In this document: positions 18,001 to 21,000 of the stretch, piece by piece
Position numbering within the stretch: the stretch's first letter is position 1
Layout of the letters: the number at the start of each line of letters is the position of its first letter
Source of the DNA: Escherichia phage Gally
DNA: 38,682 nucleotides
Strand: one strand, 5' to 3'
Sequence record: OV696608
Position numbers: made by a program

Positions 18001-21000
18001 TTACCGGAAACTGGGCTTACGGTGCGATAGCAGGTTGTACGTTCTTCATTGCGCGTGAACACACCCAGGCAGAATATCGCTGGATAGAAAAGTTTGGGAA
18101 AGGGAAACGTATCAACATGCCATGGTGTGGAGGTTTTGATCCACGCGTGTGGGATGTGGGAAGTCTGTTGGATTTTTCTTTCCCAATTATCGGATGCTTA
18201 TTGGTATGGATTCTTGCATCGTAGCGAACACATAATTACCGATGAAACAAAACTGAGACACACAAAGCTTTGCACTGGATTGCCAGGCGTTGTGCTATTC
18301 GATAGTTAAGGTGTATCACTCCACCTTTTCATCAAGCCAGTCCGCCCACCACTGCATCATTTCTCTGCGCTTATCGAGATACTGAGCATGGTTGTAAATT
18401 CAGCAAACGACGTAATGTGTTTGACAAAAAATTAGCGCAAGAGGACAAAAAATCACCTTGCGCTAATGCTCTGTCTCAGGTCACTAATACCATCTAAGTG
18501 GTTGATTCATAGTGACTGGATATGTTGTGTTTTGTCGCGTTTTGCAGTCTATTATTTAATCATTAAGTAATCTAATGCTATGATTTTTAAATTATTTATG
18601 TGATTTTGTCATCCTTTAGGTGAATAAGTTGTATATTTAAAATCTCTTTTACTATCAATGAATTAATATAAACAGGTCATTATTAGTCAAAATAAAATCA
18701 TTTGTCGATTTCAATTTTGTCCCATTCACGCCCACGACTGTCCCTATACCGCGCCGCCATTGAATCTGATTTATGCCCGAGAAGACGTTGAGCAAACTTA
18801 TCGCCAATCTGATTCCGGTATAGCCTCGCCGACAGGCTACGCAGTTCATGGAATGTTGGCGGGTCTCCATCAAATGAGAGTCCAGATACATTTCTCGCCT
18901 TTGTAAAATACTTAGATACTGTTTTCGGGGAAAGCGGTTCGTGATGCGTTGATGCAATTATTGTTTCACTGCCGCTGGCCTCCCTGCATTTCTGTAGTGT
19001 ATCAGCCAATGAGATATTGAGCGCGTCAATCGTTAGCATCAGCGGAATGGCGAGCTTAGTACCTGTTTTACCCTGCTCAATGTGAAGATGGTTGTCGTTT
19101 ATGTCTGACCATTTCATTCTACATAAATCGCCTACTCTCTGCCCTGTAACGACAGCCAAATCCATTGCCAGCCTCAGCCAGATTGGTAGCGGTTCGGCTG
19201 CATGGTAAATCGCGACATATTCATTAGCTGTCAGCCTTGAGCGCCTTACTTCTGACTTTGCTGTGCGGGTTGCTGTTACCGGATTCGTTTCCACATGCCC
19301 CTCGGCTATTGCCTCACGAAAAACGTCAACAAGGGTTGACCTGATTAATTTTGCGGAAGCTGCTTTACCTTCTGCTACGTAGGTGTTTAGCATTGCTGCC
19401 ACTTCTTTCGTTGATATGTCAGTGAGCGGTTTGTCCGGCAATTTTCTTCGGATTACCCTGATTTTGCTGGCGTAGTCGAGTAGAGTTTTCGGTCTGATAC
19501 CCCTCTCGCTGAGGATTGTTTCATATCGGTCAAGCCACGCATGAAGAGTGATTGCGTCAGCGCCTTTAATTCTGTCTATCAGTGACTCACGCCTGTTCTC
19601 GGATAGCAACTCAATATTGGCCTGAATAGCCTCTGAAACTGCTATCCTTCTGTCTCTGCCTAATCCAAACTCTTTACCCGTCCTTGGGTCCCTGTAGCAG
19701 TAATATCCATTGTTTCTTATATAAAGGTTAGGGGGTAAATCCCGGCGCTCATGACTTCTCCTTCTTCCCATTTCTGATCCTCTTCAAAAGGCTACCTGTT
19801 ACTGGTCGATTTAAGTCAACCTTTACCGCTGATTCGTGGAACAGATACTCTCTTCCATCCTTAACCGGTGGTGGGAATATCCTGCATTCGCGCACCCATC
19901 GACGAACTGTTTCAAGGCTTCTTGGGCGTCGCTGGCGTGCGTTCCACTCCTGAAGTGTCAAGTACATCGCAAAGTCTCCGCAATTACACGCAAGAAAAGC
20001 CGCATTGATGCGGCAATGGTAGGTCTGGATATCTTGAGAAATGAACGGGCCTCATCGAGTGTGAGGCTGTGGTTAGTCCTTGCGTAGCTCGCTAATTCTT
20101 CTGTAAGTCTCTGGTGCTTTGTTTCCGTGTATCTTCATTTCAGACTTCAACAGAGCAACGAGAGAATCCCATTCGTTGAGGATGCCTTTGAATGCCGGAA
20201 CGCGCTTTGCAACCTTGTCGAATGAATCCCTGATTTCTGGAATCTGCTCGACAAGCGCAACGCATCGTCGGAAATCGGCTGCGTCATGTGGAGCACCGAA
20301 GCTATGACCATAGATATTCTTTTTCAGTCCACATGCGATTGAGGCAAGAGTTGCGCTACTGATGCCAACATCGCCAGTCGATTGCCATTTCAAAACCTTC
20401 ATAGCCAAATCTGACATTTCTTGTCTCCAATAAAAAAACCGCCATCAGGCGGCTTGGTGTTCTTTCAGTTCTTCAATTCGAATATTGGTTACGTCTGCAT
20501 GTGCTATCTGCGCCCACAGCATCCAGTGGTCATAGCAGTCGTTGATGTTCTCTGCTTCGATAACTCTGTTGAATGGTTCTCCATTCCATTCACCTGTGAC
20601 TCGGAAGTGCATTTATCATCTCCATAAAAAACCGCCGTAGCGAGTTCAGATAAAAGAAATCCCCGCGAGTGCGAGGAATGTTATTGTCTTTTCTTCGTGC
20701 ATTTGTCGCACTTTCGGCACCATCCAGATAGGCACATCCGTCCGCAATTAACACATATAGGCCACATCATTTTTCCTCTTTTGGTTTATGAATCTGAATG
20801 GTCATGCCGCTTTGAGTGGTGACTACAATGACAGAACCAGGCTGAAGACTGTTAAGATTGAATGCTTCGTAAAACGAATCCAATGCCAGTGCTTTTTTAT
20901 TCTTTCGGTTCCACCAACGCCATCCCCTGCTACAGGCCATGTTGACAATCCACTGCCCACTCCTGTAAGCCATATAAAACCAGATGAGCAAAACCTGAAG

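What the first reader, a model, noticed from the sequence alone, without database searches (positions are those of the whole stretch)
18421..18700. attP keeps lambda arm-type sites and a sib/tI-like hairpin but has a different core, and is uninterrupted
The int N-terminal arm-binding domain is almost identical to lambda Int, and lambda-type arm sites are present on both sides. The sequence where the lambda core GCTTTTTTATACTAA would lie (about 18610-18640) is different (CCTTTAGGTGAATAAGTTGTATA region), implying a different chromosomal attB. Both arms are contiguous, so this is the phage (excised or circular) form. A hairpin plus T-run at 18432-18466 sits where lambda has sib/tI retroregulation.
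Basis: partly seen in the sequence, partly recalled or inferred. Interest (0 to 1): 0.45.

Follow-up and report, generated by a model that had tools for sequence, protein, structure and literature searches.

The report
HK022-type attP of phage Gally
This is the intact attachment site of an already described E. coli phage (Gally, the LF82 prophage); it uses the well-known HK022 integration system to insert between the host genes torS and torT, so the finding is correct but ordinary.

Summary
Window 18478-18703 is a complete, uninterrupted lambda-family attP, preceded at 18423-18475 by a sib/tI-type hairpin on the int strand.

The "different core" is not new. The 21-bp core ATCCTTT-AGGTGAA-TAAGTTG (18611-18631) is identical to the attP core of coliphage HK022, within a 47-bp run of identity. 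All five arm-type sites are also identical to HK022's. Int is 96% identical to HK022 Int and 75% to lambda Int. It has HK022's D99 and R329, two published specificity determinants.

The window is phage Gally of E. coli LF82. Cutting it in the overlap AGGTGAA (18618-18624) reproduces the LF82 prophage base for base (38,689 of 38,689). attL abuts torS and attR abuts torT, which is the classical HK022 attB. The reconstructed attB is intact in 5,217 of 5,426 complete E. coli genomes.

Gally's boundaries, its attP and its torS-torT position are published (PMC9928086). LF82 is listed, and its relative NRG 857C tested, in the study of HK022-site prophages that rewire torS (PMC6814406).

Novelty: already known. 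Interest: low.

The parts
18423..18475 (-). sib-type extended stem-loop. It contains the tI terminator: stem 18432-18441 / 18457-18466, with the U-run read from 18431 down to 18426.
   Evidence: The fold gives the same structure as lambda and HK022. It corresponds to the feature annotated 'sib transcription processing site' at X51962 190-239. It differs from lambda and HK022 only by one substitution at an unpaired position and one extra loop base.
18478..18703 (+). Complete attP (P-C-O-C'-P'), positions -142 to +83 relative to the overlap centre at 18620.
   Evidence: It corresponds to the attP annotated at X51962 243-469. Identity is 200/226 to HK022 and 160/226 to lambda, with no indels.
18478..18487 (+). 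Arm-type Int site P1 (AGGTCACTAA)
   Evidence: 10/10 identical to lambda and HK022, and lies inside lambda's annotated 'int 1' binding site.
18495..18507 (-). IHF site H1 (AATCAACCACTTA)
   Evidence: Exact match to WATCAANNNNTTR. 12/13 identical to lambda and HK022 at the same position.
18509..18518 (-). Arm-type Int site P2 (CAGTCACTAT, perfect consensus)
   Evidence: Lies inside lambda's annotated 'int 2' binding site.
18519..18564 (+). Xis (X1, X1.5, X2) and Fis binding region of the P arm, placed by position only.
   Evidence: Collinear with lambda: 38/46 identical to HK022 and 32/46 to lambda. The X1 part is conserved. The X2 part has extra changes (TTTGCAGTCTATT against TATGTAGTCTATC in HK022). 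The site names and boundaries come from the lambda map as I recall it and were not tested here.
18573..18585 (-). IHF site H2 (AATCATAGCATTA)
   Evidence: 12/13 match to the IHF consensus at the position where lambda has an exact match. HK022 deviates from the consensus at the same base. Read from the sequences printed.
18611..18617 (+). Core-type Int site C (ATCCTTT)
   Evidence: 7/7 to HK022, 4/7 to lambda.
18618..18624 (+). 7-bp overlap O (AGGTGAA), where strand exchange takes place.
   Evidence: Cutting the window here reproduces the LF82 prophage exactly. It lies within the 11 bp (CTTTAGGTGAA) shared by attP, attL, attR and attB. Placement of the 7 bp is by alignment with lambda's overlap and by the HK022 literature (PMC7736782).
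18625..18631 (+). Core-type Int site C' (TAAGTTG)
   Evidence: 7/7 to both HK022 and lambda.
18653..18665 (+). IHF site H' (TATCAATGAATTA)
   Evidence: Exact IHF consensus match, at lambda's H' position.
18674..18703 (+). Arm-type Int sites P'1, P'2 and P'3 (AGGTCATTAT TAGTCAAAAT AAAATCATTT)
   Evidence: 30/30 identical to HK022 and 27/30 to lambda. P'3 overlaps the int stop codon.
18679..18708 (-). Promoter-like element (TCGACA, 18-nt spacer, AATAAT) pointing out of the prophage towards torS. This is only a candidate for the phage-borne torS promoter.
   Evidence: 10 of 12 consensus positions match. It lies inside the fragment that gave the HK022 torS transcript in vitro (PMC6814406). The mapped start site could not be read, so the assignment is inferred.
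18698..19771 (-). int, an HK022-type heterobivalent tyrosine integrase (357 aa)
   Evidence: 96% identical to HK022 Int and 75% to lambda Int. Pfam Arm-DNA-bind_1, Phage_int_SAM_1 and Phage_integrase all match.
19749..19967 (-). xis, excisionase (72 aa)
   Evidence: 99% identical to HK022 Xis and 97% to lambda Xis. Pfam Exc matches at E = 2e-40.

Best explanation
Window 18423-19967 is the HK022-type integration module (sib/tI, attP, int, xis) of phage Gally, a temperate Sf6/P22-like phage. The window is the whole 38,682-bp Gally genome in its excised, circularly permuted form.

Integration (inferred from the lambda/HK022 mechanism). Int binds the five arm-type sites through its N-terminal domain and the core sites C and C' through its core-binding and catalytic domains. 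IHF bends the DNA at H1, H2 and H' to form the intasome. The intasome captures the 21-bp attB GCACTTT-AGGTGAA-AAAGGTT in the torS-torT intergenic region. Strands are exchanged at the two edges of the 7-bp overlap AGGTGAA. This gives attL next to torS and attR next to torT.

Excision (inferred). Xis, Int, IHF and Fis act on the P arm to reverse the reaction.

Regulation of int (inferred). The hairpin downstream of attP on the int strand is the homologue of lambda tI/sib. It would terminate and protect int transcripts that stop there. Antiterminated read-through transcripts would form the longer stem, a substrate for RNase III, and int mRNA would then be degraded. Integration separates sib from int, which would lift this control in the prophage.

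Shown here: sequence homology of every site, the exact lysogen junctions, and the empty attB.
For: - HK022 attP and sib are the best database matches. X51962, annotated 'attP site' and 'sib transcription processing site', matches at 90.9%.
- The core plus flanks are identical to HK022 over 47 bp (18603-18649). All five arm sites are 10/10 to HK022, and the whole attP is collinear with lambda without gaps.
- The 21-bp HK022 core occurs once in the window, with 0 expected by chance.
- Int is 96% identical to HK022 Int. It carries D99 and R329, two residues whose lambda-to-HK022 substitutions shift specificity towards HK022 attB (PMC10863862). It also has P282, K283, K287 and R319 as in HK022; that these four are determinants rests on my recollection of Dorgai et al. 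1995.
- Xis is 99% identical to HK022 Xis.
- LF82 carries the same DNA split exactly at the overlap, 38,689 of 38,689 bases identical, with torS to the left and torT to the right.
- The reconstructed attB is contiguous in 5,217 of 5,426 E. coli genomes and overlaps the annotated start of torS.
- Published data agree. Gally is 38,682 bp at LF82 998,954-1,037,635, lies between torS and torT, and its attP was verified by PCR and sequencing (PMC9928086). HK022 integrates between torS and torT, and the LF82 and NRG 857C attL sequences are in that paper's supplementary alignment (PMC6814406).
- The sib fold is the same as in lambda and HK022, with z = -5.4.
Against: Nothing found contradicts the identification.

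- Twenty-six of the 226 attP positions differ from HK022, several of them in the X2/Fis part of the P arm. Excision efficiency could therefore differ from HK022's.
- sib retroregulation needs antiterminated read-through from the left operon. The only candidate N-like protein (26362-26661, minus strand) scores below Pfam's cut-off, 21.5 against 27.9 bits.
- No Rfam family covers the hairpin, so its RNA role rests on homology to lambda alone.
- Recombination chemistry and protein binding were not tested here and cannot be with these tools.
Confidence: 0.95

Rival explanations
1. It is a lambda-specificity attP whose core was missed by eye, and the phage integrates at lambda attB between gal and bio.
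For: The arm sites and C' are lambda-like. P1, P2 and C' are identical to lambda. The Int N-terminus is nearly identical to lambda's.
Against: At the homologous position the overlap matches lambda at 1 of 7 bases and C at 4 of 7. No lambda core occurs anywhere in the window at fewer than 3 mismatches. The natural lysogen is at torS-torT. Int carries the HK022 residues at positions 99 and 329.
Confidence: 0.01
2. The attP-like stretch is a relic, and the phage actually integrates through another site. One candidate would be a site belonging to the IntS-type integrase whose 3' remnant lies at 18316-18399.
For: A 27-codon tail identical to the HK620/CUS-3 IntS-type integrase sits just left of sib. 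This shows that an earlier integration module existed here.
Against: Only the last 27 codons of that gene remain. The HK022-type int and xis are full length. The LF82 prophage ends are exactly the HK022-type overlap. Excision and re-formation of this attP were shown by PCR (PMC9928086).
Confidence: 0.02
3. The hairpin at 18432-18466 acts only as an ordinary intrinsic terminator for int transcription, inherited passively with the module. It performs no RNase III retroregulation in this P22-like genome.
For: It has a 10-bp GC-rich stem followed by UAAUUUUUU on the int strand. The N-like antiterminator candidate is sub-threshold. There is no Rfam model.
Against: The extended lower stem that distinguishes sib from a bare terminator (GACAGAG paired with UUUUGUC) is kept. 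Both differences from lambda fall at unpaired positions. The position relative to attP is unchanged, so integration would still uncouple it from int. The candidate N protein has an arginine-rich N-terminus and sits where N sits in lambda, just downstream of the repressor gene in the leftward operon.
Confidence: 0.25

Closest known systems
Coliphage HK022 attP-int-xis-sib module (X51962 / AF069308; Yagil et al. 1989)
   Same: - 21-bp core and 47 bp around it are identical.
- All five arm-type sites are identical.
- Same spacing throughout.
- Int 96% and Xis 99% identical.
- Same attB between torS and torT.
- Same sib hairpin.

   Different: - 26 of 226 attP positions differ, mostly in spacers and the X2/Fis and H2 regions.
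- H' is a better IHF consensus here (TATCAAT against TATCAGT).
- The sib loop has one extra base and one substitution.
- The module sits in a P22/Sf6-like podovirus rather than the HK022 siphovirus.
Phage lambda attP / sib (NC_001416 27583-27816)
   Same: - Same architecture with no indels.
- P1, P2 and C' are identical.
- H1 and H' are present.
- The sib stem is identical.
- Int residues 1-44 are identical.
- Xis is 97% identical.

   Different: - The overlap (1/7) and C (4/7) differ.
- Overall attP identity is 71% and Int identity 75%.
- The attB differs: torS-torT here, against lambda's gal-bio site (the latter from established knowledge).

Other prophages at attB-HK022 (mEp235; NRG 857C, VR50 and others in Carey et al. 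2019, PMC6814406)
   Same: Same attL position relative to torS, and a conserved P' arm. The NRG 857C attL region is 100% identical to the window over the 287 bp compared.
   Different: The rest of each phage genome varies (Sf6-, HK620-, BP-4795- or SEN34-like). Only the integration module is shared.

Membership tests
HK022-type attP (lambda-family heterobivalent Int site) | 21-bp core C-O-C' = ATCCTTT AGGTGAA TAAGTTG | tested here: met
   Identical at 18611-18631 and unique in the window.
HK022-type attP (lambda-family heterobivalent Int site) | 7-bp overlap identical in attP and attB, with prophage junctions at that overlap | tested here: met
   attL and attR of LF82 share CTTTAGGTGAA with attP. 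Cutting at 18618-18624 reproduces the prophage exactly.
HK022-type attP (lambda-family heterobivalent Int site) | attB lies in the torS-torT intergenic region | tested here: met
   torS is left of attL and torT right of attR in LF82. The empty site is present in 5,217 of 5,426 genomes. The literature agrees (PMC6814406).
HK022-type attP (lambda-family heterobivalent Int site) | Five arm-type Int sites (P1, P2, P'1-3) at lambda spacing | tested here: met
   All are 10/10 to HK022 in a gap-free alignment with lambda.
HK022-type attP (lambda-family heterobivalent Int site) | IHF sites H1, H2 and H' between the arm and core sites | tested here: met
   H1 and H' are exact consensus matches. H2 is 12/13, as in HK022.
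HK022-type attP (lambda-family heterobivalent Int site) | Adjacent cognate Int with an arm-binding domain and HK022 core-specificity residues, plus Xis | tested here: met
   Int is 96% identical to HK022 Int, with D99 and R329. Pfam Arm-DNA-bind_1 and Exc match. Xis is 99% identical.
HK022-type attP (lambda-family heterobivalent Int site) | Int-dependent recombination between attP and attB actually occurs | not testable with these tools
   Published for this phage: attP and attB PCR products, and virion DNA with re-formed attP (PMC9928086).
Lambda-specificity attP | Common core GCTTTTTTATACTAA with overlap TTTATAC | tested here: not met
   Overlap 1/7 at the homologous position. No copy in the window at fewer than 3 mismatches.
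sib / tI retroregulator of int | Extended stem-loop with an internal terminator hairpin and U-run, on the int strand, distal to attP | tested here: met
   Same fold as lambda and HK022, z = -5.4. The stem is identical.
sib / tI retroregulator of int | RNase III cleavage of antiterminated read-through transcripts | not testable with these tools
   Needs RNA work. Only a sub-threshold N-like protein was found.

The most novel reading that the evidence does not exclude
The two C-to-T changes that distinguish the HK022-type P'1 and P'2 arm sites from lambda's create, on the opposite strand, a -10-like TAATAAT (18679-18685). An 18-nt spacer separates its hexamer AATAAT from a -35-like TCGACA lying mostly in the last int codons. 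If this is the phage-borne promoter that drives torS in lysogens, the Int arm-binding sites double as a host-gene promoter, and Int or IHF occupancy of attL could modulate host TMAO-respiration signalling.
Probability: 0.15. Interest if true: 0.35.

Novelty: already known. Interest (0 to 1): 0.08.

Why it matters
It matters little beyond correct annotation. The analysis identifies the window as phage Gally and assigns its integration specificity (HK022 attB, between torS and torT), as the literature already does.

The biological interest of this site is also published. Prophages at attB-HK022 replace the torS promoter and disable the host's bet-hedging in TMAO respiration (PMC6814406).

The case is a clean example of mosaic exchange. 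An HK022/lambda-type integration module sits in a P22/Sf6-like podovirus, and a 27-codon scar of the displaced IntS-type integrase lies next to it.

Tried and rejected
- Motif counting for arm-type sites (MAGTCACTAT, up to 2 mismatches) across the window gave no enrichment, 41 matches against 52 expected. It was dropped in favour of positional homology.
- The generic terminator scan missed the sib hairpin because its loop exceeds the scan's 8-nt limit. Folding was used instead.
- An Rfam search of 18200-18800 at E up to 1 found nothing.
- I tried to read the mapped torS start site of Carey et al. from the text and supplements. It is shown only in their Figure 3A, which is not held. The promoter assignment therefore stays inferred.
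- I looked for the HK022 attB sequence in PMC7736782. The table content is not held. attB was reconstructed from the LF82 junctions instead.
- I considered that the torS 'frameshifted' flag in LF82 might make the integration site irrelevant. This was rejected. The ORF is open for 910 codons, and prophage-free Nissle 1917 carries the same flag.
- Protein-database, structure-prediction and metagenome tools were not used. The identification was already unambiguous.

Full report
**What is in the sequence**

The int gene (18698-19771) and the xis gene (19749-19967) lie on the minus strand. A megablast of 18380-18760 against phage records gave coliphage HK022 as the best hit. X51962 matches at 90.9% over 340 bp, and its annotation at that place reads 'attP site' and 'sib transcription processing site'. 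Phage mEp235, annotated 'prophage attachment site (type HK022)', scores the same.

**Alignment with HK022 and lambda**

A four-way alignment with HK022, mEp235 and lambda has no gaps from P1 to P'3. Lambda coordinates therefore transfer directly: the overlap centre is window 18620, equal to lambda 27731.

Site by site:

| Site | Window | vs HK022 | vs lambda |
|---|---|---|---|
| P1 | 18478-18487 | 10/10 | 10/10 |
| P2 | 18509-18518 | 10/10 | 10/10 |
| P'1, P'2, P'3 | 18674-18703 | 10/10 each | 9/10 each |
| C (ATCCTTT) | 18611-18617 | 7/7 | 4/7 |
| Overlap (AGGTGAA) | 18618-18624 | 7/7 | 1/7 |
| C' (TAAGTTG) | 18625-18631 | 7/7 | 7/7 |

Identity with HK022 is unbroken from 18603 to 18649. Overall attP identity is 200/226 to HK022 and 160/226 to lambda.

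The IHF consensus WATCAANNNNTTR matches exactly at H1 (18495-18507, minus strand) and H' (18653-18665). These are two of only five matches in the whole window. H2 (18573-18585) matches 12/13, as in HK022. The 21-bp HK022 core occurs once in the window. The lambda core does not occur at all. The arm-site consensus alone is too short to be statistically informative.

**The proteins**

Int is 96% identical to HK022 Int and 75% to lambda Int. Residues 1-44 are identical in all three. Pfam finds the lambda-type arm-binding domain, the SAM-like core-binding domain and the catalytic domain.

Int has D99 and R329. Lambda-to-HK022 substitutions at these two positions shift specificity towards HK022 attB (PMC10863862). 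It also has P282, K283, K287 and R319 as in HK022. That these four are determinants rests on my recollection of Dorgai et al. 1995.

Xis is 99% identical to HK022 Xis and 97% to lambda Xis.

**The hairpin**

On the int strand, 18423-18475 folds into a 12-bp upper stem capped by a small 3-bp hairpin, with a 7-bp lower stem beneath it. A U-run follows the upper stem. The energy is -27.9 kcal/mol, z = -5.4, and 0 of 200 shuffles fold as well. Lambda and HK022 give the same structure.

The two differences from lambda and HK022 are one substitution and one extra base. Both fall at unpaired positions. This is the tI/sib element.

Whether RNase III retroregulation operates here cannot be tested with these tools. 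A candidate N-like arginine-rich protein lies where N lies in lambda, just downstream of the repressor gene in the leftward operon (26362-26661, minus strand). It is below Pfam's threshold. Rfam has no model for the element.

**Where the phage integrates**

The window is an Sf6/HK620-like podovirus genome that starts at the same point as the Sf6 record.

Searching E. coli genomes with the two halves of attP found E. coli LF82 (two assemblies) and NRG 857C. The P' half matches at 100%, beginning at window 18614. The P half matches at 99.5%, ending at 18631.

In LF82, torS lies immediately left of attL and torT immediately right of attR. The junctions read tgcaCTTTAGGTGAATAAGTTG and catcCTTTAGGTGAAAAAGGTTgag. 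Cutting the window in the overlap and linearising it gives a 38,689-bp string identical at every base to NC_011993.1 998947-1037635.

The reconstructed attB (…GCACTTTAGGTGAAAAAGGTT…) is contiguous in 5,217 of 5,426 complete E. coli genomes. It overlaps the annotated start of torS.

**Literature**

Misson et al. 2023 (PMC9928086) named this prophage Gally. They give its size as 38,682 bp, which is the window length, and its end as 1,037,635. They verified the boundaries and attP by virome reads, PCR and sequencing. They noted that it lies between torS and torT at the HK022 site.

Carey et al. 2019 (PMC6814406) showed that HK022 integrates there and replaces the torS promoter with a phage-borne one. 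They list LF82 and NRG 857C among natural carriers. Their supplementary alignment contains the very attL sequence found in the window.

**Verdict**

The feature is the already described HK022-type attP of an already described phage. Novelty: already known. Interest: low.

The one loose thread concerns the torS promoter. A minus-strand promoter-like element (18708 to 18679, 10 of 12 consensus positions) has a -10 formed by the HK022-specific bases of P'1 and P'2. It may or may not be the torS promoter mapped by Carey et al., who reported no obvious -10 or -35.

Noticed in passing
window 18316-18399 (minus strand): There is a 27-codon open tail, IYNHAQYLDKRREMMQWWADWLDEKVE*. It is 100% identical to the C-terminus of the IntS-type integrase of HK620, CUS-3, HF4s and N7. 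It is a scar showing that the HK022-type sib-attP-int-xis module replaced an earlier integrase. The same remnant also occurs in lambda-like phages (mEp332, PhiR70_1, ev099), about 60 bp from the sib/P-arm DNA they share with the window. This suggests a recurrent recombination joint at sib.
   Followed up: partly
window 18679-18708 (minus strand): A sigma-70-like element (TCGACA, 18-nt spacer, AATAAT; 10 of 12) points from the P' arm towards the core, that is towards torS in a lysogen. Its -10 is made by the two bases that distinguish the HK022-type P'1 and P'2 from lambda's. It is a candidate for the published phage-borne torS promoter, but the mapped start site could not be read.
   Followed up: partly
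L009 (E. coli EC5931, NZ_CP104592.1) 4001-4346: An uninterrupted HK022-type attP (91% identical to the window's) lies inside a chromosome, between a tailspike-side region and int. The record has three places matching the query. This is as expected for tandem prophages at one site.
   Followed up: partly
E. coli genomes H57-H95 (for example NC_013361.1 1764815-1765153): About 450 E. coli genomes, many of them O26, O121, O103 or O157, hold a full-length uninterrupted attP-like stretch next to an integrase; the listed examples match at 81.6%. Why an unsplit attP sits in these chromosomes was not examined.
   Followed up: no
L006 690-3433 (LF82 torS); also L010, L011, L012: torS is flagged 'frameshifted' in LF82, NRG 857C and prophage-free Nissle 1917. 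In LF82 the ORF is open for 910 codons and simply ends about 4 codons early. Nissle has the same annotated length and flag. The flag therefore looks like an annotation quirk unrelated to the prophage.
   Followed up: yes
window 26362-26661 (minus strand): A 99-aa protein with an arginine-rich N-terminus (NARNRRRARRQAQREQ) lies just downstream of the repressor gene in the leftward operon. It matches Pfam N_peptide below threshold, 21.5 against 27.9 bits. It is probably the N/gp24-type antiterminator.
   Followed up: partly
window 15030-15039 (plus strand): A second perfect arm-type consensus, CAGTCACTAT, lies inside the Arc-like repressor gene (14899-15150). It is far from attP and probably occurs by chance.
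   Followed up: no
window 18539-18553: The X2/Fis part of the P arm reads TTTGCAGTCTATT. HK022 has TATGTAGTCTATC and lambda has TATGTAGTCTGTT. It is the most diverged protein-binding segment of this attP, although Xis is nearly identical.
   Followed up: no
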